The position numbers and the translations under genes were made by a program. The notes below the pieces were generated by a model. That model ran no database searches. It was not told where the DNA came from and was given only the letters and a program-made list of their open reading frames with translations. A DNA stretch of 64,000 nt from Rhizophagus irregularis. Lineage: Eukaryota. The DNA lies in NCBI RefSeq assembly GCF_026210795.1, contig NC_089432.1:5022001-5086000 (forward strand). The letters run 5' to 3'. Positions 235 to 42,900 of this stretch are shown here, one piece after another. How positions within the stretch are numbered: position 1 is the first letter of the stretch; each line of letters begins with the position of its first letter.

Positions 235-2553
235 ATGTCTGATAATAAGCAAATGCAAAATACCGAAAATACAAATGAATGGATTAATTGGATTGAAGAA
301 GCTATTGTTAAAGAACATTTAAAATATTACGAATACAAAGAATTTAGTAACTTTCAAGAAATTGGTACCGGAGGTTTTGGAAAAGTGTATCGTGCAAAGT
401 GGAAAAACTTAGAAAAAAGTTTTGCCTTGAAATCTTTTTTTAGTCTTAATAATATCACTATGAAAGAAATTGTTCGTGAGGTAATTTAATATTATAATTA
501 ATTTTTTTTTTTTACTCTATAATTTTTTAGTATTATTATATTTATTTTAAAAACTTGAATTTATTTAGTTAAAAATTCAACGTGAAGTTGATTTTCATGA
601 TAATATTATTCGTTGCCATGGAATAACAAAATTTGAATCGGGTATTTATATAAAGATACTTTAGTAATAAATATAATCTTTTAAGATTTTATTCACAAAA
701 TTGCATTTCAATAATGATATTTTTTTTTTTAGAAAATCATCTTAATAATAATTATATGTTGGTAATAGAATACGCTGACGGTGGCAGTCTTCGAAATTAT
801 TTAAAGGAAAATTTCGGTGAACTTACCTGGGACGATAAGTACCTTATGGCGTATCAGTTAGCTTGCGCAGTATCATGCTTGCATGATGAGAAGATTATTC
901 ATCGTGACTTGGTAATTATTATTTTAGTCATTTTTAGGTAATTCAATGTTTGTATTTATTCATTTAGCACGCACTCTTTAATAGCACTCTGGCAATATAT
1001 TAGTCCATAAAAACACGATCAAATTAGCGGATTTTGGTCTATCAAAAAGAATTGGAGCATCGTCCAACTTTCAATCTAAATTATTTGGGATGGTTCCTTA
1101 TGTTGATCCAAAAAGTTTTAGCAGACGAAGAAATAATAATCAAATGTTTACATTAAATGAAAAAAGTGATGTTTACAGTGTTGGCGTATTATTATGGGAA
1201 ATTTCTAGTGGACAACCTCCTTTTTATGCTGAAGATGAACATTATGACGTTGGATTAATTTATGACATTTCACAAGGTCATAGAGAAACGGTTGTTCCCG
1301 ACACCCCCGAAGATTATATAAAAATTTATACTAGTAAGTAAAATTAATTTAAATCTAACTAGAGCTATTATTTTAATAAATTTTAAATTATATTTTTAAT
1401 TGTTTTAGAATGTTGGGACGGTGAGCCTGATAATCGACCTACTATTTATCAAGTAGTTGATTGGTTAAAAGCAAAGATTACAAAAACAGATATAATAACG
1501 GAAAATCCTCAATTATCAGATGAACAAGAACTTAATGAGGTTCCTTTAAGCACCAATAATTCAGAATCACAAGGAGATTTATCTCAACTTATCCAAAATT
1601 TTAATAAAATGAATACAAAAGAAATTGATAATATAGTAGTATCAAGTGAGCAAGAGATACTTTTAAATGAAAAGGATTTAAAGGATTTTAACAGAAAAGA
1701 TTTTAGCATTATAGTTGATGAAATAAATGATTTAATTTATAAATTATGTAATAAAGGAATTGAATGGAAATTAGTAAGAGAGCAAGTTATTGAATATTTT
1801 AATAATTATAATACAAATTCACAAGAAATTAATAATTGGTTATTAAATAATCAAAATAATTCAAATTCCATTTTTTTACTTGGATATTTTAATTTTTATG
1901 TAATTGAGACAAGCCGAAATTATGAGAAAGCATTTAAATTATTTATTAATTCATCAGAAAAAAATCATATATTAGCACAATCTTTTGTTGGTGGATGTTA
2001 TCAATATGGAAATGGAACTAAAAAAAATGAAAAGTTAGCTTTTAAATATTTTGAAAAATTAGCTAATAAAAATTTCACACATGGACAACTTAAAATTAGT
2101 TATTGTTATGAAAATGGAATAGGTATTGAAAAAGATTTAAAAAAGGCTTTTTATTGGTATGAAAAAGCCGCAAATAATGGAAATATATTAGCTAAGCATA
2201 ATCTTGGTCTTTGTTATAAAAATGGAAAAGGGGTTGAAAAAGATTATAACAAAGCTTTTGAATTGTTTAAACAATCAGCTGATGGAGGATATTTAGGTGG
2301 AATAACAATGTTAGGAAATTGTTGTTTTTATGGTATTGGAACTAAAATTGACAAGCAAAAAGCATTTGAACTATGTCAAAAATCAGCGAATTTAGGACAA
2401 ATGGTAGGACAATCTAATCTTGCTTTGATGTATGAAAGTGGAAATGGAATTATAAAGGACATGGATAAAGCGATTTATTGGTATGAAAAATCTGCCAAAC
2501 AAGGTTATCAGGATGCACAAAATAGATTAGAAATACTTCAAAAAAATAAATAA
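235..2553 (+). CDS. G1: TKL protein kinase-Sel1 repeat protein (~663 aa), 5 exons: 235-480, 569-641, 733-911, 985-1333, 1409-2553
   Basis: GT-AG introns join the ORF pieces in frame. Motifs [42 protein letters not shown]. About six Sel1 repeats (e.g. [26 protein letters not shown]). No signal peptide or TM segment seen. Confidence 0.92.
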
Positions 2554-3834
2554 TTTATAATAAATTCTTTCTTATTAAATCGTAAAATGTAAATCAATTA
2601 AATCAATTAAATTTGCTAAATTATTTTTTTTTATTTTATAGAATAGTGTATACTAAGATATAATAAATAAAATCTTATCAATATTTATAATCATCCTTAA
2701 GTAATTACAAGTATTTTTTTTTATCAAGTTAATATGTATATTTTTCTTATAAATTAAAATGTCGTTCTAGGATTTACAAAACTCATGAGGGTTTAATTCA
2801 TTTTTCCGAAAATTTAATTGTTAAAATTATTGATGCTTATTTTTTGGCACTATTTTTTGAAATGATCTCATATATGAAAGAAAATACAATGAAGTATGAT
2901 GGTAATTAAGGAAGTGCTTTTTATATTATATAAAGCAAAAAAAAAAATTAATAATTTAGATCTTTTATGTAAAAGAAATATTTTTATAAAATATAAAAAT
3001 ACTTGTATTATAAATCACTTATATTACTGTACGATATTGATTGTTAAGCATTTGTCAACCATATGATGGTAAACTTAAAATCAATGAATACCTGCTTAAA
3101 CTACATCAATCTAAATTTCTCATGATGTTTAAAATAAGAAGCAGAATGATGGCAGTATTGCGATTTTGATGTTTCATTTAATTGTTAATAAGTCGAATAA
3201 AAGAAATACCCGGTTTGTTAGTCTTTAAAAAGGTAACAATAAGTATTTGAGAAATGAAAATGTCACAATGAATCCAGGGTATAGGACTAAACGATCGTCA
3301 TTACTAGCTGGTAACAAAGCAACTGAAAATGTTTTCTATCTTTGAAAATATTAGCTGTTAAGTAAACAACTTGAGAGAAATTGGTAAATTTACGACAATA
3401 TGTTCAAACGTCCTTCACCAATCACCATCTGGTTTTTTAAGCCAATTTATACTCTCAAGTTGAAAATATTATTCTATATATTATTATTATTATCATGGTC
3501 TTGCATTAAATTAATAGATAAGTTCAAACTAACGAGCCCTAGTACAAAGTTTGTGCCACATAACTTATCGATGTTCTCTTTAAACTAATGTATATTTGTA
3601 TGGTTATCATAGTTATCGATAATAGGATATCGAATAATCAACCAACTTCAATTAGAAAATGTACCTAATTATTTATTATTAGACTACTAAAGATATAAGC
3701 TTACATAATTTTGTTTTAAAAATAATTACGCAATATTACCCAAGACCTACTTAAAGACGACATTGATTTTTTTCACATAATAATAATTTATACATTAAAA
3801 ATTCATTACAAATTACTTAATAATTATATAATTA

Positions 3835-4310
3835 TCATATTATATAAGTCATTTTCTGTTCATAAATGTTTATTTATTTCGAGCATCTTGATCTCCTTGT
3901 TTGACTGATTTTTCATATTAAAGTATCGCTTTACCAATATTTTTCGTTACTCCTTGTCCTATTTTAGTTCGTATGATTTTAAAAGATTAGGTATATTGAG
4001 CTGCACTATTTCCTAAATTTGCGACTTTTTGATATTATTCAAATTTCAAATTCATTTTGTCTATCAGTCAAATTGAAATAATATTGAAATGATCTCTGAA
4101 TACTCGATATATACGTATATATATCAGGAAAAAGAAAAAAATACATAGCTGATAATAATTATCTAATATTAAGCGAAAACTAAAAAATTTATGTTTATTT
4201 AGCGGCATAATCTTCTAAAAGTTTGATTATTTTTGATAAACCAATATTTGCTAACTTGATTGTGTTTGATTGACAGGCTCATTGACCAATATATTACTAG
4301 AGTATTATTA
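3835..4310 (-). pseudogene. Relic of G6-type kinase-Sel1 gene (last Sel1 repeats plus a kinase DFG-region remnant)
   Basis: tttatttcgagcatcttgatctccttgttt...gagctgcactatttcctaaattt matches 32806-32943; ttttgataaacc...aacttgat...accaatatattac matches 34212-34267; many indels. Confidence 0.8.
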
Positions 4311-5786
4311 AATAAATATAGTATATATTTTATATAAATACCGTAAATAACATAATTATATAGATAACGATTTGTCATACAATTTCTCCATTATATAACA
4401 TAAGTCCAAAGTCAATTTTAGAATAAATAATGATGTCATCAATTTCACTATATCTATTTGTTTCTTTTAGTGGTCAAAGATAGAGTAGCTAGAGTTATAT
4501 TATTTAAGATTATACAAATTTATTAAAGTACCAAATTTAGTAACAAATTTATATCAATATAATTTTTTAAGTATTTATAATCTACCTATTTAGTCGAAAC
4601 CTCGAAACCAAGCCAATGCGACCCGCCGAAATTTAATCAAAGCTAGATTTTATTTCCAGCTTAGATTTATTAAATCTCTATATTTTCGATTTATTTTTAT
4701 TAATGTTATTCAATTTTTCCTTCTATCTCTTTCATCCTTTGTATCATAAATACATTTCTGATTTTTTCAAATGTGATGTCGTAAAGAGGCGTTAATTATT
4801 AATATTCTCTTGTTTTTTAATGAAAAAAAAAGGTAACATACTCTAAAATTTAAAATGCGAAAAAAAAAATTGAATTGTGTCCTTTAGCAAACAAAATAAA
4901 TAAATTTATTTTATAGATACAGTATATTGAGTGCATAAATTTTGGTATGTATTAGAATCAAAATTTATTTGATACATTTTTTTTAATCTTTTTATGGTTT
5001 ATAATCACACAAATATTTATACTTTTTTTTCGCTTTTTTTTAATATCCATTTAATTTCATACTTTTTATCAATATGATAATGAATTTTTGACTTGGAAAA
5101 TATTTCAAAGCATAGTGATTTTAGCGATAATGATAGTTTGGAATACACTTCTTTTTAATAAGAATTAAATATTTCACCAAAGTTGCATTTTAACATAATA
5201 AATTGACCATATCTGAAAGGTATTTGTATTTTGGAAGGCCAAAAAAAAAGTTCAAGACCGAAAGAAACAGACAATATTATACCATTGTGAAACCGAAAAT
5301 TATATTACTATAAATATATCCAAAATAATGACCTTCGTTACTATATTTTAATGAACATTTAGTCATGATTTAGATCCTTTAGATGATTATTTATGTATTA
5401 ATATGACCTAAGATAATAATAAATTCAGTATTTAGATACGTAAATTATTCTTAATTTTTTTAGTTTATGTAATTAATTTTCGTATCTCTTGTTAACAATA
5501 GTACCAACGCACTGCAGTATGTGGTTCAAATTTGTTTATAAAAAAAGCTGGTTGATACCGTTTTCAATGTTAAAAATGACGAATAGGGCGTTATGAATAG
5601 ACTTTATTAAAGTCTAAAAAATGAGATGCAAAATTGCAAATTATCACGTGATATTTCGTTCATTACTGCGGAATTATCCAATTCTGTCGTTTTTTAATAC
5701 CTTTTGAGTGATTCAAAAATCACGTATAGTTATCTATCGAGAACTTTATTTTATTTATCATAATTCCGTCAAATTATTTATTCACT

Positions 5787-5913
5787 ATGTCCGACCATAT
5801 CAAAATGCAAGATACAGAAAATGCGAATGAATGAATTAATGGATTTGAAGAAATTATTGTTAAAGAACCGATACAGAACAATTTAGTAATTCTCAACAAA
5901 TTAGAATACCTGG
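5787..5913 (+). pseudogene. Relic of exon 1 of a kinase-Sel1 gene
   Basis: atgtccgaccatatcaaaatgcaagatacagaaaatgcgaatgaatga resembles the G2/G7 start, with the Trp codon changed to TGA and deletions; a single ATTACTGCGG lies upstream at 5662. Confidence 0.75.
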
Positions 5914-6529
5914 CGGTATTCACGTGTGATGCTTCAGCGAAAGAAAAATAGGGAATATTACTCACTTTCTAGGTAATTAGTTCAAGTCATTCTGTATCCC
6001 CTCATAGATTCTAATCAATTGAAGATCTGCTGAATCGTTAGAGGTACTATAAAATTTAATTAGGTATATAGAACCTATGTTTTAGTGTTTCCGTGTTTTT
6101 TTCATGTTTTTCATGCATGTCTTTACTTGAATAAAAAATATATATAATAATAATTTTCAATTTACCATTTTATATTGTATTTTTTTTTAAAAAATGTAAA
6201 AAAATAACAATTTTTCGATATTTATTTATTTGAATACCAAGAATAAAAATGATTCCACATATAATTACACACAATTTAATATTGATTTTTTTTTTTAATT
6301 AAAAAAAAAAATTTTTTTTTATTTAATAATTCAAATAGAAAATTTACTTAATAATTCTGTCTATTTTTCTACTCATAAAAATTAATTTATTCGAGCTTCT
6401 TGATTTTCTTATTTGGCCAATATTATCATTCGCTGATCGAGCTGCTAAATATTTTAAAATTTTAATTTAACTTTTTTTCGAACTATACATGTTTAATGAC
6501 ATAATTTTTTTTGGCAATTTAATTACGTA

Positions 6530-6547
6530 ATTACTGCGGTACTGCGG
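6530..6547 (+). promoter_or_regulatory. Conserved upstream motif ATTACTGCGGTACTGCGG (G2)
   Basis: Identical 18-mer in diverged flanks. Confidence 0.6.
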
Positions 6548-6730
6548 TTAATTTCTTATTTGGTAATACTAAATGACAATGTACGACAATTAATCGGAGA
6601 ATAAGTGCATAAAATTTCGTCTATAAATACCGTACATTATATTTTTTATCAAAAAAAAAAAATAAAAAAAAAAATACATTAAATTTTATCTTTTAAAAAC
6701 TTTTATAAAACTTTTCAATCAATTATTATT

Positions 6731-9006
6731 ATGTGTGATAATATCAAAATGCATGATACCGAAAATAAAAATGAATGGATTGATTGGATTAAAGAAGTTA
6801 TTGATAAGGAACATTTAAAATATTATGAATACAAAGAATTTAATAACTTTCAAGAAATTGGTACCGGAAGTTTTGGAAAAGTGTATCGTGCAAATTATAA
6901 AAATTTTGAAAAAAATTTCTCTTTGAAATCTTTTTTTGGTTTAAACAATATCACTATGAAAGGAATCGTTCGTGAGGTAATTTAGTATATATATATATAT
7001 AATATTTATTTATTTGTTTATTTATTTATTTTTTATTATTTTATAATTTATATTCTATTATATTTATTTCATAAACTTTGAATTTATTTTAGTTAAAAAT
7101 TCAACGTGAAATTGATTTTCATGAAAATATTATTCGTTATCATGGAGTAACAAAATTTGAATCAGGTATTTTGAAGTATACAGTACTTTAATGGTTTTTA
7201 TTAACAAAATTGTATATTAATGATTTCTTTTTTTTAGAAAATCGGATCAATGACAATTATATGCTAGTAATGGAATACGCCGACGGTGGTAGTCTTCGAA
7301 ATTATTTAAAGAAAAATTTTAGTAAACTTACCTGGGATGATAAGTACCTTATGGCGTATCAGTTAGCTTCCGCTGTATCATGCTTACATAATAAAGGGAT
7401 TGTCCATCATAACTTGGTAATTTATTTATTATTATTTAATGGTTGTGATAATGTTATATATTCAACTTTGTTTAATTAATATATATATTTTAATAGCACC
7501 CTGGTAATATATTGGTTCATCAAAACACAATCAAATTGGCGGATTTTGGATTATCAAAAAGAAATGGAATATCATCCAATTTTCAATCCAAATTATTTGA
7601 AATGATTCCTTATGTTGAACCAAAAGGTTATAGTGGGAGAACAAATAACAATAATCAAACACGAATACAATCCTTTAATAAGAAAAGTAATGTTTACAGT
7701 ATTGGTGTATTATTTTGGGAAATATCCAGCGGTCAATCTCCTTTTAATGCTAAAGTTGAACAATATGATGTTGGTTTAATTTTGGAAATTTCGCAAGGTC
7801 TTAGAGAGACTGTTATTCCCAACACACCTGAAGAATATACAAAAATTTATACTAGTAAGTATATTTGATTATAATTTGAATATTTATTTCAATAATAAAA
7901 TTAATTAAATTAAATTTTTTTATTTAGAATGTTGGGATGGTGAACCGGATGATCGACCTACCATATACCAAGTAGTAGATTGGTTAAAAGCAATTATTAC
8001 AAAAACAGATGTTAATGAAATCCCTTCAAATACCAATAATTCGGAATCACAAGAATTTATTTCTAGAATTATTCAAAATTTTGACAAAATAAGTCTGAAA
8101 GAAATTGATCCTATAACAATATCAAATGAACGAGAGAAACTTTCATTTGAAAAAGGTTTTGATAAAATAATTGATGAAGTAAATGATTTGATTTTTGAAT
8201 TATTTAATAAAGGAATTATATGGAAATTAGTAAAAGAACAAGTTATTGAATATCTTAATAATTATAATACTAATTCAAAAGAAATTTATAATTGGTTATT
8301 AAATAATCAAGATAATTTAAATTTCACTTTTTTACTTGGATTTTTTAATTATTCAGGAATTGAAACAAAAAAAAATAATGAGAAAGCATTTAAATTATTT
8401 ATTAAAGCATCAGAAAAAGATCATATATTAGCAAAATCTTATATTGGTGAATGTTATCAATATGGATATGGAACTTTAAAAAATGAAAAATTAGCTTTTG
8501 AATATTATCAAAATGTTGCAGATAAAAATTTTACTCATGGACAATTAAAAATTGGATATTTTTATAAAAATGGAAAAGTTATTGAAAAAGATTTAGAAAA
8601 AGCTTTTTATTGGTATAAAAAAGCTTCAAATAATGGAAATATTTTTGCTATGCATAATCTTGGTAATTGTTATTTAAGTGGTGAAGGTATTGAAAAAGAT
8701 TATAATGAAGCTTTTGAATTATTTAATCAATCAGCTGAAGGAGGTTATTCAAGTGGAATGACTTCATTAGCATATTGTTGTTATAATGGTATTGGTACTA
8801 ATGTTGATAAACAAAAAGCATTTGATTTATATCAAAAATCTGCAAATTTAGGTAGTATGACAGCACAATATAGTCTTGGTATTATGTATGAAAATGGAAA
8901 AGGAATTACAAAAGATATAGATAGAGCTATTTATTGGTATGAAAAATCTGCCAAACAAGGTCATCAAAAAGCACAAAAAAGATTAAAAGCACTTCAAAAA
9001 AATTAA
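6731..9006 (+). CDS. G2: TKL pseudokinase-Sel1 repeat protein (~644 aa), exons 6731-6976, 7093-7165, 7238-7416, 7497-7854, 7928-9006
   Basis: Same exon structure with the frame open throughout. Catalytic loop reads HHNL|HPGN instead of HRDLHSGN; subdomain IX reads KSNVYS instead of KSDVYS; DFG and the beta-3 Lys are retained. Confidence 0.85.
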
Positions 9007-9599: not shown

Positions 9600-10153
9600 T
9601 TTATACTTTTAACTTGCTAATAATGTTATCAATATCTTTTATTTCATTAGCACTTATTGATTAATAAACATGTTCGAGTTAACTATAATCTTTTTTCTAT
9701 AATAATATAAATAATTCGAATACTTTCTCAATTTTTCATTTATTTTAATTCTTAAATAATCAGAATATTTTAATAAAAATATTTGAAACTAAAAATAATT
9801 TTGATTTCTTATTATAAACCAATTGTATATTTCACATAAAATTTATATATCATGATTATAAATATAAATTTAAAAATTTTTTAAATTTATAAACTTTTTT
9901 CCTTTAATCAGTTATTTTAAAAAAATTCTATCCCATTAACTATTGTGATTAATTTCTTTTCAAATATTATTCTTTTATCTAATATTTTATTTTTTTTTTC
10001 AATCTTTTTGTATTTGATTTGATTAAAATAATTGTTCGTTTGAATGATTGAGAAGTCAATTTCCGATAATCACAATTGATCTGTTTTCATAATGAATTCT
10101 TTTAATTTTATATATATCGGTATATGATCATCCTGTCCTCCCAAAATTCTAAT
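9600..10153 (-). pseudogene. Relic of G6-type gene (exon 5 region)
   Basis: Degraded match to ~33300-33840 (ttcgaatactttc...ttttcatttattttaat; taactattgtgattaa; ccaaaattctaat). Confidence 0.7.
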
Positions 10154-10174
10154 AAAATATTCTATAACTAATTG

Positions 10175-11745
10175 TTGGGTCCGTGGCGGAAGATCTCAAT
10201 CATTAAGAGAAACTCTCTCCTGTCGATCCATCAACCAAAAATTTTGCGGAGGAAAAATAGAAGAGAGATATAAAGTATATATACAAACATACATAGATAT
10301 GGAGTCATATTTTGAGCAGAAAGAGCTTCAAGTCAAATTTCTTGAAGAAATAAGCAAGTTTATTAAACATCACTTTAAGAATATGGGAAAACGACAAAGT
10401 CAGCTTCATAAAAAATATAGACCGAGTTTTTAGACAGTTCTACCAACGTAGGAACGATTAAACTTATCGATCCAAATTAAAGAAACAACTAAAAACTAGT
10501 TTTTTTTTTAAAAGAACAAGTTGCTCAGCAAAATTAAGTAGTGAGACAGCCAAACTATTACTGAAGTGTGGTGAAAATATAGCGTATGAGTTAATGTTAT
10601 ATCAGTTAAATAGGACGACAAAACGGCATACTAAAAGGATGGTTTAAGAGAGTCACGTATGAAAAAAAGAAAATTTCATACAAAAAAAAGAGCGAATCAT
10701 ATGGTAAAATCTGGAGTAAAACGGATAGAAAAATTTATGTCAGCAGTAAAGTAAACAGACGTTACAAAAAAGAATATAAACACAAAGTCTAAGTAATAGA
10801 CATTCCATAAGTTTACGATCTCTTTTTTATTATGATATACTAAAAAGATGGGTGTAATTCGTAACATAAGCTCATTTAGAGTTGTAAAGAAAATAAAAAT
10901 TAAAAACTTTATAAATTACAAACTGTAAGAGCAGATATGTGAATTTAAAAAGTTCTTTTGGTGTTATCATGTGGGAGAATTACGTGTGTTAATATAGTGG
11001 GAATACACGCACAGTGGAAAGAGCAGAGAGATCAATAGCAACTAGTGAGGAATGTTGAATACATTTCAAGTTGAGGTAAATTTTACAGAATAATATAAAA
11101 ATTTTCATACAAATTCAACGCAAGCTTTATATAATCGATAAAGTTCAACGGCTAATTACGCGTTGGAGAAATCATTTACAAGAGAATTAAAGTTTGGTTG
11201 ATCTACAAATGTAGGAATTTATCCAAACACTTTAATATAAATTACGTAGTCAAGACGCAATCAATAGAGAAGCAAAGTGAGAGAATACGAGTGGGGATAG
11301 AGATACAGATATAGATATAATGAAGTACTATGAAGATATTATATCGATATTTGATGATGGAGTAGGAAAAATTAATTTTGTTAGGAGGCAATTGACTCAG
11401 AGGATGAATTGTCACCAAAAAGTTTCTTGGTTTAAGAGACATGTACAGTATATCATAAAATGGATGAGAAGGTTGATGAGATCACAAAGACTTAAGATGA
11501 AACAACAAGTAAATTAGATGAAAAGATAAATCAGTGATCGTGATTGAGGATAATCCTACTCCATCTACTCCATCACCGGAACAGACTAAGGGTTTCCGGG
11601 CGACGTATGAAAAAAGCGAAGGAGAGAAAGTCGCAAGAGATGGTAAAGAATCAAGTAACTTCCCGATAAACAAACTACAAACACAATCATCGGACAAGAA
11701 TCACGTGATTCCGGAAACAGAAGAGGTCGTTGATACTATAACAGA
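10175..11745 (+). mobile_element. Decayed coding-like insertion, possibly a retroelement fragment
   Basis: Purine-rich, higher-GC block with broken ORFs between two G6 relics; no diagnostic RT or transposase motif recognised. Confidence 0.3.
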
Positions 11746-11749
11746 TAAA

Positions 11750-12630
11750 CACATAAATTTATTTCATGATTATTAATATAATTTAAAATAATTTTTTTCT
11801 TAATTTAGAATCTTTCCTTGATTCGTTGAATGATACTACCTCTTTAACTATTGTGATTAAAACTTCTTAAATATTATTCTTTTATTTATTGGTATCGTAA
11901 ATTTTATTTCTTTTGTAGAATTCGACTCGCAGTGATCAACTTGATCTATTTCCGTAATGATCTCATTTCACTTGATATATAGTTGGACGATTATCTGGTT
12001 CATCATTCTAATATTAGAAAAAAGAAAGAAATATAAGAAATTATTAAGCGAGAAACCAAAAGATTAATTTTAAATTATTTTCAATTTCTTGGCTCGTATA
12101 TTTGAGTTGACTTTCCTGACTCGTATATTATAGTATTAAGTAATATCAAAAAGAATTAAAAGAATTTTAGATTTAGTATTAAATTCTTTTTACCATCTTG
12201 ACGAAATATTTTACTGTATCAGCCGGCATATCAGGAACACGACCTCTCTAAGATTTTTTGGACATGTCAGTATCATCATGATGTTGATTATTTAGATATA
12301 AAAAGAGGTCGACCACGCCAAGAATAAATTTGTGTTGTGCTACTACTACTATCTTTTCTAAATCTTTGTGGATCAACGTAAGCGTTTGATTTTGATTGTG
12401 GCTAGTTATTTGATGGACTGATATATTATGAGAGTGCTATTGAAATTTAATCGAACGATTATGACGAATTTAAATAGCATGTCGATATTTTTAAATTTAA
12501 ATAAACCAATTTAAATAGTATGAAAAATAATTTACTATTCCTCCACTATTATAGTTTAGGCCAACTGATACGCTAAATTATTTTTATCACATCGAGTAAG
12601 GTTCTTGGATTTTTTGTCTTTAAAATATGC
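11750..12630 (-). pseudogene. Relic of G6-type gene (exons 3-5)
   Basis: atagttggacgattatc, ttattaagcgagaaaccaaaag, aatctttgtggatcaacgtaag, gagagtgcta and gccaactgatacgc match G6 between ~33490 and 34450; frameshifted. Confidence 0.82.
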
Positions 12631-13392: not shown

Positions 13393-13551
13393 GAAGTTTT
13401 TGTTTGGTAATACCTAGCAACACTGTGTGACAATAATCAGAGAAAATACTTTAAATGGAGTTATTTTCGTTACCCGTGCGCAATAAAATTTTACAACTTA
13501 CCGTTCAACTTTATTGTTTTTTAAAACCCTTCCTGTCAATTATTATTAAAT

Positions 13552-18990: not shown

Positions 18991-19028
18991 GAATAAAAAT
19001 TTTTTATTTTAATAAGTGATCCTACGTC

Positions 19029-25451: not shown

Positions 25452-27129
25452 CTTTTTACAAGAGAAACTATAGGTTTTCATAATTAAATTATTAAAAAAA
25501 ATTTAAGACTCAGAATTATTTTTAGTTGTTGTTGATCATGCAAGAAAGATAATTCTTTAATGACATTTTAAATATCGAATCTAAAATTATTATATTATTA
25601 AAATTATTAAAATAATTCGTAGCTCTTGTTAAGATTTATTACTTTTTTTAAAATATTCAGAACTTTCTAATAGAATGTTTCTTTCAAACAAAATAACACG
25701 ACTTCGAGATTTCAGTAATGCAAATGCTATAAATAAATCGTCTGCTTAAGATATATATATATATATATATATATTGAAAACTTTAATTTCGAAAAATTTG
25801 TCGAAATTAGCATTTCATTAATATAATTGAAAAATTTTAGGACGACCCTGTGATACGATTTCGAAATTTAAAGTCGTGATTCGAAACCTCCTTCTTGATT
25901 TTATCACTTGAGATGAGTTAGAAGCTTTCATCTTTAATAGCAGTAAAGACATAATTTTTCGAAAAAATAACTTAACAGTTAATAAATTTAACAGAAAAAA
26001 ATAAATCGTTCATATCCTTGGTTCTCTTCCAATTCATCTCATGTGATACAACCAGGAAAGAAGTACCGAATCAAAGTATAAATCTGATATTGAATCACAG
26101 GTTTGCAGAATATTTCGTTCTAAAGTTTTTCTAAAAAAATACTACTGTATTAAATAAACACTAATTAGTTTTGGCAAATTTTTCAAAATGACTTTCACAT
26201 GATATTAATTATCTAATAACGAGGATCTGTATTCCACATGTGTGATAAATAAAATAAAAACGAAATAAAAATTGCAATTTTTTGTTAAGTATCTAATTAA
26301 TTCAACTTTCCATAATTTTTCATCAATATTTATTGCTCTTAATCTTGAAAACGGGGATAATTCAGACGACGTCAAATTTTCGAATTAAATTTATAGTATT
26401 CTCGAAATGTATGATAAATTTTTACATTTAACAATTCATATGATAATGACAATATTTTAGCGTGAGTTTTAAGTTTATATTCATAATAGTTTTATATTTT
26501 TTATCAAGAAAATTCGCTAATTCCAAAGGATTTTATGATCCCTTGGGAGATCTCCATTAACTTGGTAAATTTTGAAATAAATTATAAATATTGCTACTTG
26601 TTATAACATATTATGTATCTTTTTCAGCGATATTTTTAAAGATATGACTGCCTCTTATATCAGTTAATTTATCTGATTTTTTGACTCTTCTCTCGTTAAC
26701 TGAACTCTAATGACAATCCTTTACCTATTTCCAATTCGTCCTTAATTCTCTTCCAATTTTTTAAACCCTTGTAATTTTACTTAATGATCCAAACTCCGTC
26801 CACGCCATCTTTGACTCATCTGGTCTGTGTACACTATAACATTCTTTTATCATAAAATCTCGCTGAGAATATTTGGTTTCTGTTTATTTTCATAAAGTTT
26901 GAGAAAATTCTCGAAGATTATCCTGAAAACCACCTCGAGGCTGACAACATGCACTTCAACTATTCTTTACATCATTATTTGATGGGATCTAACAAACATC
27001 AATTGCTACCGATAATGGTTCCATCGATGATGATGTACTACTAACTGATAATACAGTTTTCGGAGAGAAAGCTGTCCTGAGATAGGTATGAGAGGAAAAG
27101 ACTATTCAATCCAAGGGGAATAGTACTTA

Positions 27130-27887
27130 TGTAAATCCTTAAACCTCTGAAATAACTATCCGCCAACCTTTGGAAGATTCACCATTGACAAAGAACTTTT
27201 TCATTTAAAAGGTGACGATTATCTTTCTTTGTGAACTTGATGATGACGAATTTTTCTTCGTCAGTTTCTGCCTTCCAAGCCAAGTTCATTGGATCTTCAG
27301 TAAGTTTATAAAGGTATGTAAACTTGCCTTCATTTTCATCAACTTAATATTGATTATGGTAAGGAAAAACCTTTGTATCTTTTCAGCTTCGGTCTCATCT
27401 AATTCTTTTAAGCCTTTGTAGTAGTTATCTAAAGTCTGAAAGGCAAGATGTAAAGACTCAAAAAAAACTGCAAGCTCTTCTACTCTTTTTCCATTGTCTT
27501 CAGGGCGATTCATCATTAGAATGAAATCAGTGAGTAGCTCAATTACGGGGTTTTCAAGATACACAGCACCAAGGACACAAATCCAAGACCCTGCAATAGC
27601 AAGAATAATGGATGGGTAACAAGAACTATTGCGAATCTTTTCGGTCTGTTCATGAAAAATTAAACATGAATATTTGCATGACTTTATCAATATGTCACAA
27701 AGAAAACACACCTATGATTGAGCCCAATACTTTATATCACCACACCCCCTTGAATTGAAGGATCTTTTCCTCCTGTACCTATCTCATTTTTGTATTCCCA
27801 AAGAATTAGGACAGCTTTCTCTTCAAAAACTGTATTATCAATTACTAGTAATACATCATCATCAATGGAACCATTATCGGTAACAAT
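27130..27887 (-). pseudogene. Decayed PD-(D/E)XK nuclease-fold + kinase gene (Crinkler/CRN-effector-related architecture)
   Basis: Minus strand reads DNGSIDDDVLL...ILWEYKNEIGTGGKDPSIQGG / KYWAQ / KIRNSSCYPSIILAIAGSWICVLGAVYLENPVIELLTDFI / LAWKAETDEEKFVIIKFT; frameshifts and stops. Family assignment is from motif recall. Confidence 0.7.
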
Positions 27888-28694: not shown

Positions 28695-28927
28695 ATTATA
28701 ATATGTAAATTCTCTCGTAAATGTTGTAATTTATTTCGAGCATCTTTATCTCCTTGTTTGGCAGATTTTTCATACCAAAGTATAGCTTTACCAACATTTT
28801 TCGTTACTCTTAATCATGTTTCAAATGATACTGCAAGATTTTATTGAGCACTATTTCTTAAATTCGCTGCTTTCTGATATAATTCAAATGCTTTTTGTCT
28901 ATCAACTTTAGTACCAATTCCATTATT
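28695..28927 (-). pseudogene. Relic of the G6-type 3' end
   Basis: Near-identical to 32761-33006 with small deletions; ends at agtaccaattccattatt, about 30 bp before the G5 upstream motif. Confidence 0.85.
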
Positions 28928-28955
28928 TTAATAAGTAATCTTAATCTCCTAAGTC

Positions 28956-32760: not shown

Positions 32761-35066
32761 TTATAATATATAAATTCTCCCATTTTCTACTCGTAAATGT
32801 TGTAATTTATTTCGAGCATCTTTATCTCCTTGTTTGGCGGATTTTTCATACCAAAGTATAGCTTTACCAATATTTTTCGTTACTCCTAATCCTGATTCAT
32901 ATGATACTGCAAGATTATATTGAGCTGCACTATTTCCTAAATTCGCCGCTTTCTGATATAATTCAAATGCTTTTTGTCTATCAATTTTAGTACCAATCCC
33001 ATTATTATAACAATATCCTAACATTGATATACCATCAGCATCTTCATTATCAGCTAATCGTTTAAATAATTCAAAAACTTTTTTAAAATTTTTTTTATCC
33101 TTATAAATGAAAGCGAGATTATACATTGCTATATTATTTCCATTTTTTGCAGCTTTTTCATACCAATAAGTTGCTAATTTAAAATCTTTTTCAATACCTA
33201 TTCCCATATCATAACAATGACCAATTTTTAATTGACCCATTGCATAACCCTTATTAGCCAAACTTTCAAAATATTTAAAAGCTAATCTTTCACTTTTCGT
33301 TACACCATGTCCAAATAAATAACATTCTCCAACATAATATTGTGATAATAAATGATTTTTTTCTGATGTAATAAAAAATATTTCGAATGCTTTCTTAAAA
33401 TTTTCATTTATTTTAATACCTAAATAATTAAAATATCCTAATAAAAACATTGTATCCAAATCATCATTATTTTGATTTTTTATTAACCAATTATATATTT
33501 CACTTAAATCCATATCATGATTATTTAAATAATTTAAAATAATTTGTTTTCTTAAGTTAGCATCTTTTCCTTGATCCGTTATTTTAAAAATGTATGATAC
33601 TATTTCTTTAACTATTGTGATTAAATCTTTTTCAAATATTATTCTTTTGTTTATTGGATTTATTGTGAATTTCACTACTTTTGTATGTGATTTGATAAAA
33701 TTTTGTGATGATAATGATTTTTCGTTTGATGATTTCTCACATTGATTGGATTGATCTGATTTCATAATGATCTCATTTAACTTGGTGAACACTTGATACA
33801 TAGTTGGACGATTATCCGGCAGATCATCCCAACATTCTAATGAAAGAAGAAAAAGAAAATATAAACAATTATTAAACGAGAAACCAAAAAAGATCAATTT
33901 TAAAAATCAATTTACATACCTGTATATAATTTTACGTAATCTTCGGGCGTACCAGGAATAACAGCCTCTCTAAGACCTTTTGAAATATTTACAGACATGT
34001 CATCATCATTTTGATTACTTTCAGTATGAAAAGGAGGACGACCACTAGAAATCTCCCATAATAATACGCCAACGCTGTAAATGTCACTCTTTTTATTAAA
34101 TGAATAAATTTGTGTTGGGCTACTACTATTTCTTCTTCTAAATCTTTGTGGATCAACGTAAGGTATTATTCCGTTTAAATTTGATTGTGATTTAGTTATT
34201 TCTTCGATTCTTTTTGATAAACCAAAATCCGCCAACTTGATCGTGTTTTGATGAACCAATATATTACGAGAGTGCTATTAAAATTTAATTGATTAGTATG
34301 ACACATGACGATATAAAGTATATAACGATGTAAAATAATATGGGAAACAAAAAAAATTACCAAATCACGATGAACTATTCCACTATTATGTAAACATAAT
34401 ACGGCGTAAGCCAACTGATGCGCCAAATTATACTTATCATTCCAAGTGAGGTTGTTAAAATTTTTCTTCAAATAGTCTTGAAGGGTGCCGCTATCAGCAT
34501 ACTCCATCACTAATAAGTAATTATTTTCTATAGACGTAAAACGAATAATTAAATTTACATACATATATATATATACTTTCAATATTCAAACAATATATAA
34601 TCATACCTGATTCGTCCTTCGTAATTCCATATAAACGAAGAATATTATTATGAATAACTACGTCTCGTTGAAGTTTAAGCTAAAAAAAAACAAAAAAAAA
34701 ATTAGATAAAAATAAAAAATATTTTACCGAAAATAGGTCGAACCATCCGGAAACTTCCGACAACATTTCGAATTTCGATAACGTTTCTGCGGAAGTCTTC
34801 CGGATGAGTCCGGATAATTTCCGAAGTAAAGAAATTACCTCACGAACGATTTCCTTTGTAATAACATTGTTAAGGTTATAAAAAGATTTCAATACTATGT
34901 ATTCTTTAAAATCTGTACAATTTGCACGGAATACTTTTCCCAAATTTCCAGAGCCTATTTCTTGTATATTACTAAAATTTCTATATTCATAATATTTGAA
35001 ATATTCTTTGGCGATAGCGGATTCGATCCAATTAATCCATTCATTCGAATTTTTTGTTTCTTGCAT
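32761..35066 (-). CDS. G6: divergent TKL kinase-Sel1 repeat protein (~632 aa), exons 35066-34839, 34679-34607, 34527-34361, 34274-33920, 33836-32761
   Basis: GSGNLG, HRDL|HSRN, DFG, DIYSVG, CWDDLPDNRP; Sel1 repeats; same intron positions; convergent with G5. Confidence 0.9.
34724..34829. mobile_element. Palindromic MITE-like insert in intron 1 of G6
   Basis: catccggaaacttccg pairs with cggaagtcttccggatg; ends TTAC...GTAA; GC-rich within an AT-rich intron. Confidence 0.65.
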
Positions 35067-36892: not shown

Positions 36893-37799
36893 AGTAATTA
36901 AGTAATTATTAAAGTATTCCTCGTAACTGTCATTTAAAATATGTTTATCATATCGGAAGTAGTTTATGGTAAATCTTTTGTCTTTTTGATTAATTTTGAT
37001 TTTTTGACTTTGATTCGTAATATAGTATGTATTATCTATTTGGTTATAAAATTGTGTGATTAGCCAAATTTATCGTGACGACGTGACGACCGTGACGTTA
37101 ATAATGATGATCTCACTTATTTTCTTTTTCTATGATAAAAAAAGTCAATGCAAATCAATTAATAATAAACTGTTTATTTGCGTAAGTTGCGTAAGAAAAT
37201 ATGTTTAAAGACAAAATTTAAATTTTCAATGTAAAATATTATTTTATTTTATGTGGCGTTAATTCATGACGTAGAAATTTGTAATTTAACTATCATTCAC
37301 GTGTTTCGATTCTAAACGTTTTTCCGATATATTTAGATTAATAAAATGTTCACAGTAGCAACAAACAAATGAGATTAAAAAGAAATGATTCTTCAAAATA
37401 GTTACATAGCGGTACAGTAGTTATTAGTCGATTTAGATAGAGTATTATTATTTTTTCGTGTAACAATTGGTATAAGAATTAATAACGTACCCAAAAATTA
37501 CTATTTTTTTTTTTTCGTCGGAAATTTTTTTTTAAAAACCATTTTTTTTTTTATTAAAAATACGAAGTCAACACTTAAATTTCCTATAAAATTTTTTAAG
37601 GATGCTACAAAATACAAAATACAAAATTTGGATTCATATGTAATGAAAAGACATATTAGCATAGCAAGCACACATTTCTTTTAAATTATAGATATATTTA
37701 TATCAGTTCCATCATTATAAAATATAAAATAGCGAAATTAGAAGGTAATATAACAATTTTGCAATATATTTATAAGTATTTATTGAAATGTTAGTTTCT

Positions 37800-38325
37800 A
37801 TAGATGAAGAAAAGTATTCGCTTGTTCTTGAATATGCGGACTGTGGAACATTAGGAAAATATCTAAGGGACGATACTATGACTTTTAATTGGGAGAACCA
37901 ATTAAGATTACAAGTGCGATTTTATGGTTACATGATGTTAAGGGAATCCGTACATGGGGATCTGGTAAATAAAATATTTTGTGTTATCTTACTATATTAC
38001 GTAATTAACATATTCTTTTTTTAGCATCCCAATAATAGCTTTAATACACCAAGATGCAATAAAATTGTCAGATTTTTGTCGTTCATTTGAAAAAGGAAAG
38101 GGCTGTAATGATACTGGAGTATATGGTGTAATACCCTATGTGGACTCCAACATGCTTAATCGAGAAATTTTTATAAGATATTCTGGGAATTAGCAAGTCG
38201 CTCATCACCTTTCAATTATGAAACGAGAAACTATCACACTTCTCCTATGTTGGATATTCTTAGTGGTTAAGAGAAGAACCGATTCCAAACACGAATATTA
38301 AATTTATTAAACTTTATCAACGTAA
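37800..38325 (+). pseudogene. TKL kinase pseudogene fragment of a different subfamily
   Basis: YSLVLEYADCGTL, HGDL|intron|HPNN, IKLSDFC, YGVIPYVD, FWELAS...PF, ILSG*REEPIPNT; frameshifts and an in-frame stop. Confidence 0.82.
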
Positions 38326-39397
38326 GTACAGTTTGCTATAAGTCACTCAGACACATATAAAAATAGGGAAGTACACCATGTGATGAAACAATACACGTGA
38401 TTTTTCGTGCATTTTACACTAGGAACGTTATAATTTAAACTCAAATGTGATTTTACTAATGGTAAAATTTTAAATTTCCAATGTAGTTTATTTAAAATAC
38501 AAATTCAAAAAAATTCCAAATTTTTAATTTAACTTGTCCTTAATTAAGTTCACGATTGACTTTTGATTGACTTTTGGCGAAACAACACTAAATCTTAATT
38601 GATGCCGCAGTAATTTAACTATCATTCACGTGTTTCGATTTTAAGTATTTTCATTAATTAAAATATCGTATGATAGAAAAAACATTGCGAAGAATGAGTT
38701 GAATTTATTATCTACAAGAGGTGAGTTTTAATATGTTGTGTGGAATGAATCTTTGATTATTATAGGTAACCCTATTTTCTATAATCTTTTGATTAAACTA
38801 TTACACCCTCGTGTGCTTCTTCATTAATATCCTTATCGTAAGTTACATTGTTATGTAGTTTAATTCCCTTTGTTTCCATATCTTTACGCAATTCTTCATA
38901 TATAAGAAAAATTTTTTCCGACATATTAAAAATTCGATTTCAATAATTATCGACTGAGGTTAAATAACAAAATAGTGTAAACTTTAGATAGAGCTTATAA
39001 AAGGTTATTACCGCTTTTTTTTTAAAATTCATGATCTTTATTACGAAGCAGGATTCTGCATTACTTTATATTTAACATCACTACTTTCATATACCCAAAA
39101 ATTATAGCCCTTGAGTAGCATTAGTTTTACAAAATAAATTTTATCCTGTCTTGTTTATTTATTAAAAGATGTATACCGAAGGATGCAAACTTTGGCTATA
39201 AAATGCAAAATTTTCATATATAATGAAAGTCATTTTAGCACAGCAAGCATACATTTTTTATAAACGTATGTTAATTGCATTGTTACAAAATATAAAAATA
39301 GTAAAAATTTTTAATAAATTATTTATTGTTCATATTTTTTCTGTTCAAGTAAATATATTCATTATCTTATAAAATATACCGTAATTGATTTACAATT

Positions 39398-41698
39398 TTA
39401 CGATTTTAGTGAAAGAATTTCAAAATATTTTTTTTGTGCTTTTTGATATCCTTGTTTGGCGGATTTTTCATACCAATAAATCGCTTTATCTATGTCTTTT
39501 GTAATTCCATTTCCACTTTCATACATCAAAGCAAGATTAGATTGTGCTATCATGTCTCCTAAATTTGCTGATTTTTGATATAATTTAAATGCTTTTTGCT
39601 TGTCAATTTTAGTTCCAAAACCATTAAAATAACAATATCCTAACGTTGTCATTCCACTTGAATTTCCCCCTTCGACTGATTGCTTAACTAATTCAAAAGC
39701 TTTATTATGATCTTTTATGACACCCTCTCCATTTAAATAACAAAGACCTAAATCATGTATGGCTATCATATTTCCATTATTGGCAGCTTTTTCATACCAA
39801 TAAATACCCTTTATTAAGTCTTTTTCAATGCCTACTCCTTTCATATAATAATAACCAATTTGAAATTTTCCATATGTGAAATTTTTATTAGCCACTTTTT
39901 CAAAATATTTAAAAGCTAGTTCATCATTTTTTGTAGTTCCATAACCATATTGATAACATATACCAACAAAAGATTGTGCTGATATATTATTTTTTTCTGA
40001 TGCATTAATAAATAAATTAAATGCTTTCTCATAATTTCTGCTTGTCTCAATTCCATAAAAATTAAAATATCCAAGTAAAAAAATGGAATTTGAATTATTT
40101 TGATTATTTGATAACCAATTATAAATTTCTTGTGAATTTGTATTATGGTTATTAAAATATTCAATAACTTGCTCTTTTAACAATTCTTCTCCAACTCCTT
40201 TATTTAATAATTTAAAAACTAAATCAATTATTTCATCAGCTATTATGTTAAAATCTTTTTGAGTTGGAATATTTTCTTGTTTACTTGACATTACTATAGG
40301 ATCAAATTCTTTAGTATCCATTTTGTCAAAATTTTGGATAAGCTGAGATAATTCTCCTTGTGATTCTGAATTATTGGTACTTAAAGGTGGTGCTTCATTG
40401 ATTTCTTGCTCATTTGATAATTGAGGATTTTCCGTTATTATATCTGTTTTTGTAATTAAAGCCTTTAACCAATCAACAACTTGATATATGGTAGGACGAT
40501 TATCTGGTTCACCATCCCAACATTCTGAAAAATACGGTAAATATAATTTGAGATTAATTAAAAATAATATTAAAATTAAAAACTAAATTTAAAATATTAC
40601 TTACTAGTATAAATTGTTACATATTCCTCAGGTGTTTCAGGAACAATAGTTTCTCTATGGCCTTGTGAAATATCCAAAATTAAACTAACATCATATTGTC
40701 CATCTTCAGCATCAAAAGGAGGTCGGCCACTAGATAATTCCCATAATAATACGCCAATACTGTAAATATCACTTTTTTCATTTAATGAGTATATTTGTGT
40801 TTGGTTATTATTATTTCTTTTCCTGCTAAAGCTTTTTGGATCAACATAAGGGACCAACCCAAATACTTTGGATTGAAAATTGGATGATGCTCCAATTCGT
40901 CTTGATAATCCAAAGTCCGCCAATTTGATCGTGTTTTGATGGACTAATATATTGCCAGAGTGCTATTAAAAGTATATATTAAATAAGTATATACAAATAT
41001 AAAATTACCAACAATAATAAATAAATTACCAAATCACGATGGACAATCCCCTCATTATGTAAGCAAGATACAGCGCTAGCCAACTGATACGCCATAAGGT
41101 ACTTATCATCCCAAGTAAGTTTACTAAAGTTTTTTTTCAAATAACTTCGGAGACTACCACTGTCGGCGTATTCCATTACTAGCATATAATTGTTATTAAT
41201 ATGATTTTCTAAGGAATAAAGGGAATAAGTAATCATTAAAAAAATATTTTTATTAATAAATTTGGTACATTTATTATTAAGGTAGAAATTAATAATACCT
41301 GATTCAAATTTTGTTATTCCATGACAACGAATAATATTATCATGGAAATCGACTTCACGTTGAATTCTTAGCTAAATAAATTTCAAATTTTTTTAAAAAA
41401 TAAATATAATATTAAAAATCGCAAATAAAAAAAATTCTTGTACATTAATTACCTCACGAACAATTTCTTTAACGGTGAGATTGTTAAGATTAAAAAAAGA
41501 CTTTAACGCAAAATATTTATCCAAATTTTTCCAATTTGCACGATAAACTTTTCCAAAACCCCCGGTACCAATTTCTTGAAAGTTATTAAATTCGTCATAT
41601 TTGTAATATTTTAATTGATTTTTGTCAATAGTTTCTTCAATCCAATTTATCCATTCATTTTTATTCTCAGTATCATGCATTTTGATATTTTCAGACAT
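39398..41698 (-). CDS. G7: TKL kinase-Sel1 repeat protein (~660 aa), exons 41698-41453, 41371-41299, 41208-41030, 40962-40605, 40524-39398
   Basis: Inverted copy of the G1/G2 type; GTGGFG, HRDL|HSGN, DFG and DIYS present; Sel1 repeats. Confidence 0.92.
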
Positions 41699-42448
41699 AT
41701 TGAATTTAAAAAAATATAAATTGAACGGTAAAGGTTTGTATTTAACTTTAATTAATTTTTTTTTTTTCTCCGATTTATATTCTCACAATATCACTAGTAT
41801 CACCAAACAAATAAGTCGTCAATCATTCGATATTTTCAACCGCAGTACTGAACTAAGCCGAAAAATTCAGCCGAAGGCGCAGTAAATTTTCGGCTCAGCC
41901 GAAAATCGATCTTGAATAATTTGAACTAACCCTATCCGTAATCTTTGTAAATAATAATTTGGAAAATAACAAAATCTAAGCAATTTCATGTTTTAACATG
42001 GAATAAAAAAACACGGTACAAATTTTTTAGAGGGAAACGTAAAGTCTTTAAAGTCCTATTCACAGAAAAATCAAGCTAATTCTCTCTAATTGAAAAGTAT
42101 TATAAGAGTATTGTAAGCGAAATTAAATTTTATTTGCTCATAAAAAAATGAATGTTATATATAGTATGCCAAATACTGTTTCTCCAAACTTTGAATATTA
42201 CCAGTTAAAATTTAGTACTCAATAGTTACAATGTTACATGATCACACGTGACAAAATGACAAAATCTTAAGCTTAATTTCTTAATCCAATAGCTAAATTA
42301 CATTTTTTGCTAAATATCCAACATATCATACAACATTTTTCAAGATGTATACCGAAGATGTAACTGTAGAATTATAAATACTGTATAAAATGCAAAATTT
42401 TGACTTCATATGTAATGAAAGACCTAGTAACACAGCAAAGCAAATGAC

Positions 42449-42900
42449 GGATTTTTCATACCAATAAATCGCTTTATCTAAATCTTTTGTAATTCCTTTT
42501 TCATATTCGTACAATAAAACCAGGATAATATTGTGCTGTCATATTTCCTAAATTTACGTGAAAAGATAAATTCCATTTAGTTCCTTTATTGATTTATTAT
42601 AACGACTATTCCGTTTTCATTTGAAAGATTCCTATTTGATACTGACATATTATCGATTTTTTTGTATTCATTTTAACAAAATTTTGAATAAGTTGAGATG
42701 ATTCTCCTTGTGACTATTAAATGAACCTCATTAAGTTCTTACTCATTTGATTTCTGTTATTATACCTGTTTTAGTAATCAATGCTTTTACTGCTTGATAC
42801 TATAATAGGACGATTATCCGGCTCACCATCCCAACATTTCTAATGTAATTTAAGTAATATAACCAAATAATTTCAAATTTATTTACTAGTGTAAATTTTT
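42449..42900 (-). pseudogene. Relic of a G7-type gene (exon 4 end and deleted exon 5)
   Basis: Minus strand encodes [21 protein letters not shown] and [19 protein letters not shown], with a large internal deletion. Confidence 0.85.

What the first reader, a model, noticed from the sequence alone, without database searches (positions are those of the whole stretch)
235..42900. Kinase-Sel1 array as a candidate diversifying intracellular sensor/immune receptor system
Seen: seven complete genes of one architecture (short N-terminal W-rich helix, TKL kinase, linker, about six Sel1 repeats, no signal or TM segment) mixed with at least seven relics and many transposons. Known: TKL and Sel1 families are greatly expanded in Glomeromycotina, and clustered birth-and-death loci with a superhelical repeat sensor joined to a signalling domain typify NLR/het and R-gene loci. 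Inference: these are single-chain cytosolic receptors (Sel1 as variable sensor, kinase as output) without an NTPase, for non-self, endobacterial or host-protein recognition. The family expansion is known; the receptor function is the untested part.
Basis: partly seen in the sequence, partly recalled or inferred. Interest (0 to 1): 0.85.

Follow-up and report, generated by a model that had tools for sequence, protein, structure and literature searches.

The report
Kinases with fast-evolving Sel1 binding grooves
A root-symbiotic fungus carries a tandem array of seven intact kinase genes in which the kinase part is conserved but the residues predicted to line the binding groove of the Sel1-repeat tail differ from copy to copy, so each copy likely captures a different protein, possibly a foreign one.

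Summary
The array is real: seven intact five-exon kinase–Sel1 genes, seven relics, and an eighth gene cut by the window end. Three copies are identical to Rhizophagus irregularis proteins; the one copy tested, g1, is spliced in three putative RNA runs. The family expansion is known.

The pattern of change is the finding. Kinases show purifying selection (dN/dS 0.19–0.27). In the Sel1 region, positions fixed beforehand from TPR ligand contacts evolve about 3.5 times faster than the rest. A site class with dN/dS above 1 appears only in Sel1, but its p ranges from 0.00005 to 0.39 by model. Repeats look shuffled between copies.

In eight pairs of close paralogues, 35% of groove residues differ, against 11% of other Sel1 and 3% of kinase residues. 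Alleles and cross-species orthologues keep their grooves, so diversity lies between copies, unlike het-type polymorphism. The same head also sits on BTB-BACK proteins.

Best reading: target-capture kinases with copy-specific binding. Ligands, immune role and catalytic activity are untested. 'Many transposons' is only partly confirmed.

The parts
235..2553 (+). g1, intact A-type kinase-Sel1 gene (exons 235-480, 569-641, 733-911, 985-1333, 1409-2553; 663 aa)
   Evidence: identical to P0204; introns 2 and 4 spliced out in contigs of putative RNA runs
6731..9006 (+). g2, intact A-type gene, probable pseudokinase (HRD reads HHN); 644 aa
13552..15818 (+). g3, intact A-type gene, 655 aa
   Evidence: Sel1 region 98% identical to R. 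diaphanus P0013
19182..21598 (+). g4, intact A-type gene, 655 aa
   Evidence: identical to P0185
29147..31421 (+). g5, intact A-type gene, 657 aa
   Evidence: identical to P0008; folded
32761..35066 (-). g6, intact divergent B-type gene, 632 aa (about 62% kinase identity to A types)
39398..41698 (-). g7, intact A-type gene, inverted, 660 aa
63471..64000 (+). g8, 5' part of a further family member cut by the window end
3860..4315 (-). B-type relic (3' end plus a kinase fragment)
   Evidence: best match g6
5754..5917 (+). A-type relic, 5' end only
9700..12620 (-). B-type relic in two pieces around an unclassified insert of about 1.6 kb (10157-11749)
18838..18991 (-). B-type relic, 3' end; shares its junction with the relic at 28709
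28709..28934 (-). B-type relic, 3' end, 93% identical to g6
37767..38334 (+). relic of a more distant kinase
42445..42905 (-). A-type relic with an internal deletion
23..87 (+). conserved upstream motifs of A-type genes: a 17-mer about 150-210 bp before the ATG of g1, g2, g4 and g5, and a 14-mer before g1, g2, g3, g5 and g7; function untested
   Evidence: 4 matches, 0.00 expected; 5 matches, 0.12 expected
22943..23329 (-). RNase H-like retroelement relic, below the Pfam cut-off
16455..16960 (.). small element bounded by inverted repeats
27002..27887 (.). element bounded by inverted repeats, carrying an unannotated 141-codon frame

Best explanation
These genes are a tandem repertoire of kinases, predicted to be cytosolic, in which a conserved kinase is tethered by a predicted flexible linker to a helical-cap-plus-six-Sel1 head whose predicted groove differs between copies, so each copy likely captures its own protein target, probably a foreign or fast-changing one, and would phosphorylate it. 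Shown: intact genes, splicing of g1, purifying selection on the kinase, acceleration at groove positions, and mosaic repeats. New copies arise by tandem duplication (shown). Their grooves change by point substitution and, most likely, by exchange of repeats between paralogues; they then stay nearly fixed across strains and a sister species. Inferred, not shown: that these positions face the concave groove (mapped by homology to TPRs), that they bind proteins, that the bound protein is the substrate, and that the targets are non-self.
For: Groove set 2,5,6,9,12,13 was fixed beforehand from TPR-peptide contacts (PMC1261162 passage). Its dN/dS is 3.4-4.0 times that of other Sel1 codons, LRT 75-88 in 6 of 6 fits. 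11-13 of the 20 top-ranked sites fall in that set, 3.1 expected. MG94xGTR site tests give Sel1 p 0.006-0.00005, and 0 of 8 kinase tests are significant. 0 of 69 null simulations with one tree per repeat and a neutral groove reached the observed LRT of 11.0 (maximum 7.4). Eight non-overlapping same-assembly paralogue pairs differ at 94/272 groove, 147/1362 other Sel1, 18/226 convex-face and 67/2054 kinase positions. Groove residues are 55% aromatic or aliphatic against 11% on the convex face (94 sequences). Mosaic signal: PHI p=0.001; topology gain 28.9 against a maximum of 11.9 in 40 simulations. R. clarus BTB-BACK-Sel1 paralogues carry the same head with near-identical BTB-BACK and 16/36 groove differences. 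Precedent: eEF2K needs its SEL1-like domains to phosphorylate substrates in trans (abstract, PMC3268225).
Against: dN/dS above 1 is model-dependent: not significant under GY-F3x4 (p 0.39 and 0.08), and p 0.02-0.24 once one tree per repeat and multi-nucleotide changes are allowed (groove-partitioned 0.006-0.13). The mean dN/dS over all 36 groove codons is only 0.9-1.1 (MG) or 0.5-0.7 (GY). Codon tests rest on 6-7 sequences. Groove mapping was not checked on atomic coordinates. Orthologue-like pairs show no groove acceleration (6/144 against 21/719, p=0.29), which does not fit an ongoing arms race at every locus. Kinase and Sel1 genes of R. irregularis are more CpG-methylated on average than core genes (PMC8647823 passage), so many copies may be silent; expression was tested for 1 of 7 genes. 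No ligand or activity data.
Confidence: 0.4

Rival explanations
1. Sensor-kinase receptors: the head binds a non-self ligand and this switches on the kinase, which signals to one shared downstream defence or cell-death pathway.
For: The same evolutionary pattern. A conserved kinase suits a shared downstream partner. A pseudokinase copy (g2) is kept intact. Sel1 repeats occur with TIR plus NACHT-like domains in 2 of 46 relatives scanned, and MLKL_N with kinases in 1 of 46, all from an unnamed library. MLKL-like Sel1 proteins are reported in Glomeromycotina (PMC8778642 passage).
Against: No nucleotide-binding switch and no death domain in 7 of 7 genes. The BTB-BACK version of the head is more simply read as substrate capture. 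No induction or phenotype data.
Confidence: 0.2
2. Relaxed birth-and-death: after duplication the groove is merely unconstrained, gene conversion makes mosaics, and the copies have no distinct targets.
For: Null models with a neutral groove (dN/dS = 1) are not rejected in several fits. There are seven relics, and the family sits in methylated, repeat-rich compartments (PMC8647823 passage).
Against: The exposed convex face changes about four times less than the groove. The groove is hydrophobic-rich. Grooves are conserved in orthologue-like and allele-like pairs (6/144 and 2/216), which an unconstrained surface should not show. 0 of 69 neutral simulations reached the observed LRT.
Confidence: 0.2
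3. Endogenous specialisation: each copy docks a different fungal protein for developmental or symbiotic signalling, with no role in non-self recognition.
For: Grooves stay stable once a copy is established. Shared upstream motifs suggest common regulation. Expanded kinase and Sel1 genes have been read as signalling genes (PMC6123716 passage).
Against: Very recent copies already differ mainly in the groove (P0010/P0150: 6/36 groove, 2/180 other Sel1, 2/247 kinase), which is faster than host proteomes usually demand (inference).
Confidence: 0.15
4. A het/vic-type allorecognition locus with divergent alleles held by balancing selection.
For: Repeat shuffling resembles that reported for fungal NLR sensor repeats (PMC10197012 passage). 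Sel1 content differs between haplotypes of one heterokaryon (bioRxiv 10.1101/2023.01.15.524138 passage).
Against: Six allele-like pairs differ at 2/216 groove positions. A seventh pair (9/30) matches none of four loci closely and is probably a paralogue. Presence/absence across strains was not tested.
Confidence: 0.05

Closest known systems
Expanded TKL kinase, Sel1 and BTB gene families of Rhizophagus / Glomeromycotina (PMC8647823, PMC6123716, PMC11952901 passages)
   Same: These genes are members: three are identical to annotated R. irregularis proteins. 21 of the 24 OCT59-tagged hits among the best 120 carry tags 024038-024394 on one 5.89 Mb contig.
   Different: The passages I read list the domains as expanded or methylated. 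None describes groove-focused diversification, repeat mosaicism or a shared swappable head.
Nematode F-box and MATH-BTB adaptor families (as summarised in a passage of PMC4334554; the primary paper was not seen)
   Same: Birth-and-death clusters with a conserved output domain and a diversifying substrate-binding domain, proposed to detect foreign proteins; a BTB-BACK-Sel1 sister family exists here.
   Different: The output in this window is a kinase, the binder is a Sel1 superhelix, and selection support here is weaker and model-dependent.
eEF2 kinase (alpha-kinase, linker, SEL1-like domains; abstract of PMC3268225)
   Same: Kinase, linker, C-terminal SEL1 module needed for substrate phosphorylation.
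   Different: Unrelated kinase fold, calmodulin-regulated, and a single conserved gene with one substrate (gene number recalled).
Fungal NLRs and het genes with TPR/WD40/ANK sensors (PMC10197012 passages)
   Same: Superhelical repeat head with variable surface residues and repeat shuffling, joined to a signalling domain.
   Different: No NACHT/NB-ARC domain, and diversity lies between paralogues rather than between alleles.

Membership tests
Glomeromycotina expanded TKL kinase-Sel1 family | PK_Tyr_Ser-Thr kinase followed by Sel1 repeats | tested here: met
Glomeromycotina expanded TKL kinase-Sel1 family | Closest relatives are multi-copy Rhizophagus genes | tested here: met
   (1081 hits among 2968 candidates; named ones among the best 120 are Rhizophagus, plus one Funneliformis)
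Active protein kinase | VAIK Lys, HRD Asp, catalytic Asn, DFG Asp | tested here: met
   6 of 7 window genes (g2 lacks the HRD Asp); 26 of 31 full-kinase relatives
Active protein kinase | Measured phosphotransfer | not testable with these tools
   needs an assay
NLR (fungal, plant or animal) | Central NACHT or NB-ARC NTPase | tested here: not met
   no such Pfam match in 3 of 3 full proteins scanned; the alignment of all 7 leaves no room for one
NLR (fungal, plant or animal) | C-terminal superhelical repeats with variable surface residues | tested here: met
NLR (fungal, plant or animal) | Ligand-induced oligomerisation and defence output | not testable with these tools
   no functional data
het/vic allorecognition loci | Highly divergent alleles at one locus | tested here: not met
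   2/216 groove differences in six allele-like pairs; small sample, allelism inferred from 90% clusters
het/vic allorecognition loci | Presence/absence or allele state predicts incompatibility | not tested
   no strain panel
Positively selected substrate-adaptor families (F-box/MATH-BTB type) | dN/dS above 1 in the binding domain and not in the output domain | tested here: inconclusive
   significant, marginal or not; never in the kinase
Positively selected substrate-adaptor families (F-box/MATH-BTB type) | Cullin-binding domain | tested here: not met
   absent from the window genes; BTB (with weak BACK) only in R. clarus sister proteins
Receptor-like kinase or secreted effector | Signal peptide or transmembrane helix | tested here: not met
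   hydropathy only, 7 of 7 negative

The most novel reading that the evidence does not exclude
Arbuscular mycorrhizal fungi run an NTPase-free intracellular surveillance repertoire. One swappable helical-cap-Sel1 recognition head, diversified at its groove by positive selection and repeat exchange, is plugged into two outputs: a TKL kinase and a BTB-BACK (Cullin-3-type) adaptor. It recognises proteins of endobacteria, viruses, plants or foreign nuclei in the shared cytoplasm.
Probability: 0.3. Interest if true: 0.85.

Novelty: new variant of a known kind. Interest (0 to 1): 0.6.

Why it matters
The large kinase, Sel1 and BTB expansions of arbuscular mycorrhizal fungi (about 8% of the R. irregularis genome per PMC11952901 and PMC11075540 passages) have no assigned function in the passages I read. 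This array shows where the variation sits (about six positions per repeat), at what level (between paralogues, not alleles), and that one head serves two outputs. That turns a vague 'signalling expansion' into experiments: groove swaps and pull-downs with near-twin paralogues. If the targets are foreign, it would be a candidate immune-like repertoire in a major plant symbiont.

Tried and rejected
No whole genome is held for this window, so copy number and strain presence/absence were not tested.

The run search listed no holder on record as RNA; the RNA label of the three runs laid is the tool's guess, backed only by intron skipping and bare intergenic DNA. Reads were laid on 200-6900 only, so expression of g2-g7 is open. 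The variant tables mix paralogues and were not used for polymorphism.

The metagenome scan gave 79 loci; about a dozen matched from query residue 1, and these were distant or partial, so none entered the codon tests.

GY-F3x4 site tests were not significant. A single dN/dS for all groove codons was not above 1. PHI on third positions of Sel1 alone was not significant (p=0.15, 37 sites).

Complex prediction of kinase against head was not available, so there is no verdict on autoinhibition. Both monomer models have pTM 0.47 and give no domain arrangement. The ESM Atlas gave only sub-0.9 leads for the helical cap. Rfam: 0 matches. Earlier-findings look-ups returned nothing.

The idea that B-type copies were lost four times independently was dropped: two of the four relics share one junction. 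A CpG-hypermutation explanation is not favoured: groove synonymous divergence equals that of other Sel1 codons (0.23 against 0.24) and CpG o/e is 0.67-1.21.

Literature searches listed no paper on selection in AMF kinase-Sel1 genes. The library lacks most subscription papers and no supplements were read, so prior description is not excluded.
Full report
1. Observation. Stop-to-stop frames and tblastn show seven complete copies of one gene and the start of an eighth at the window end. Splicing at GT..AG sites gives seven uninterrupted proteins of 632-663 aa with five exons in identical phase. Three are identical to annotated Rhizophagus irregularis proteins. A search with exon 5 of g1 found 1081 relatives among 2968 candidates; 21 of the 24 OCT59-tagged hits among the best 120 lie in tags 024038-024394 on one 5.89 Mb contig, so the window is probably part of a much larger cluster. 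Seven relic loci were found. The array reads as alternating A-type (+) and B-type (-) genes: g1-g5 are intact A copies, B is intact only as g6, and four B relics match g6 best. Two of those relics share a junction, so they represent at most three independent losses. Mobile-element evidence is modest: a sub-cutoff RNase H relic, three small inverted-repeat elements, one unclassified insert and one tandem repeat.

2. Protein anatomy. Pfam gives PK_Tyr_Ser-Thr plus Sel1 in 3 of 3 full proteins scanned. Two AlphaFold2 runs on g5 give a kinase, about 60 low-confidence linker residues, a three-helix cap and six well-predicted Sel1 repeats, with no confident arrangement between domains (pTM 0.47). 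Foldseek's best matches are Sel1 proteins and tyrosine-kinase or TKL domains. No hydrophobic segment was found in 7 of 7. Six of seven keep the catalytic residues; g2 has HHN for HRD.

3. Expression. On 200-6900, contigs of three runs guessed to be RNA, from three studies, skip g1 intron 2 (GT..AG); the DNA run does not. One 332-nt contig bridges intron 4 with no mismatch. The RNA-type runs leave most of the intergenic DNA uncovered while the DNA run covers it. Only g1 was tested.

4. Selection. I wrote the codon models myself because no codeml or HyPhy is installed. Kinase dN/dS is 0.19-0.27 with no class above 1 in any test. For Sel1 I fixed a groove set beforehand: positions 2, 5, 6, 9, 12 and 13, the TPR ligand-contact positions in a passage of PMC1261162, mapped through the LG motif. 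These fall on the first helix of each repeat in the model; the mapping was not checked on coordinates.

Groove codons (36 of 231) evolve 3.4-4.0 times faster than the rest in 6 of 6 fits, but their mean dN/dS is 0.9-1.1 (MG) or 0.5-0.7 (GY). Random-site tests give p 0.39 and 0.08 under GY-F3x4, 0.015 and 0.004 under MG-HKY, and 0.006-0.00006 under MG-GTR. The groove-partitioned test gives 0.009-0.00005, with 17-25% of groove codons at dN/dS 4-5, and 11-13 of the top 20 sites lie in the groove set against 3.1 expected.

Allowing multi-nucleotide changes and a separate tree for each repeat weakens this to p 0.004-0.24 and, groove-partitioned, 0.006-0.13. A simulation with one tree per repeat and a fully neutral groove reached the observed LRT of 11.0 in 0 of 69 runs (maximum 7.4); it did not include multi-nucleotide changes. 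Synonymous divergence is not raised at groove codons (pS 0.23 against 0.24; pN 0.32 against 0.12). Groove acceleration is therefore robust; dN/dS above 1 is likely but not settled with 6-7 sequences.

5. Mosaicism. Among the six A-type genes PHI gives p=0.001 for Sel1 and 0.0005 for the whole gene, but 0.15 for Sel1 third positions alone. g1 and g7 differ by 5-6% in repeats 1 and 6 but 15% in the kinase; g3 and g5 differ by 8% in the kinase but 22% in repeats 2-4. The likelihood gain from per-repeat topologies was 28.9 against at most 11.9 in 40 single-tree simulations. Exchange between paralogues is the simplest reading; convergence could contribute.

6. Relatives. In 90 of 120 hits kept after filtering for coverage and 90% redundancy, groove entropy is 2.12 bits against 0.96 elsewhere in the repeats. 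The cap has its own variable patch near residues 390-402. Of 104 non-independent pairs with at least 93% identity over the kinase columns, 59 differ at 17-64% of groove positions and 45 at 6% or less (one of the 59 is a BTB pair).

Eight non-overlapping pairs of different loci from one assembly, picked by me from that list, differ at 94/272 groove, 147/1362 other Sel1, 18/226 convex-face and 67/2054 kinase positions; one of the eight has no groove difference. Four R. irregularis / R. diaphanus orthologue-like pairs differ at 6/144 groove, 21/719 other Sel1 and 57/1046 kinase positions. Seven allele-like pairs differ at 11/246 groove positions, nine of them in one pair that matches none of four candidate loci and is probably a paralogue. 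Orthology and allelism are inferred from 90% clusters and accessions, not synteny. Specificity thus appears to be remade after duplication and then held.

The same cap-plus-Sel1 head is fused to BTB (with weak BACK matches) in four R. clarus proteins among the 120 hits. Two of them are nearly identical over the first 300 residues and differ at 16/36 groove positions. That BTB-BACK proteins serve as Cullin-3 adaptors is recalled knowledge.

7. Mechanism. I commit to target capture: the groove binds a copy-specific protein and the tethered kinase phosphorylates it, as SEL1-like domains enable substrate phosphorylation in eEF2K (abstract). The fast post-duplication change suggests foreign or fast-evolving targets, as proposed for nematode F-box and MATH-BTB families (passage). 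Binding, substrate role and foreign origin are inferred (0.4). Rivals: sensor feeding a shared pathway (0.2), relaxed birth-and-death (0.2), endogenous specialisation (0.15), het-type allorecognition (0.05).

8. Known versus new. The expansion of kinase, Sel1 and BTB genes in these fungi is published; I read passages only of PMC8647823, PMC6123716, PMC8778642, PMC11952901, PMC11075540 and bioRxiv 10.1101/2023.01.15.524138, and of PMC10197012 and PMC9815663 for fungal NLRs. Searches listed no paper on groove-focused selection or a shared head; subscription papers and supplements were not seen. The genes are not NLRs (no NTPase) and do not behave like het alleles, but they evolve like variable-binder families. 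Verdict: a real feature, a new variant of a known kind, interest 0.6.

Noticed in passing
window 48688-52145 (-): Multi-exon trypsin-PDZ serine protease gene beyond the array (Pfam Trypsin_2 weak, PDZ_1). The name Nma111-like is recalled; intactness not checked.
   Followed up: no
window 23-39, 6531-6547, 19030-19046, 28957-28973 and 74-87, 6556-6569, 13400-13413, 28995-29008, 41797-41810: Two conserved motifs upstream of A-type genes, possible shared promoter elements; they may only reflect common descent.
   Followed up: partly
window 6731-9006: g2 is kept intact although it lacks the catalytic Asp and a second conserved Asp: a possible pseudokinase partner or decoy.
   Followed up: partly
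window 27002-27887: Inverted-repeat-bounded element carrying a degraded coding fragment with no Pfam match; possible gene-fragment capture.
   Followed up: partly
window 23710-24674: Tandem array of about 170 bp units, about 5 copies; nature unknown.
   Followed up: no
window 56281-56844 and 25272-25451: Further small elements with inverted ends.
   Followed up: no
window 45018-45437 (+): 139-codon frame with two hydrophobic stretches and no Pfam match; possible small membrane protein.
   Followed up: no
public protein P0001: One public model of g1 skips exon 2 (637 aa against 663 aa); the intron-2 junction supports the five-exon model.
   Followed up: partly
proteins P0220, P0238 (unnamed library): Sel1 repeats combined with TIR and NACHT-like domains; organism unknown.
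   Followed up: no
proteins P0072, P0121, P0125, P0132: A five-repeat subfamily with 95-98% identical kinases on four different large contigs and 27-43% groove differences: dispersal beyond tandem arrays.
   Followed up: partly
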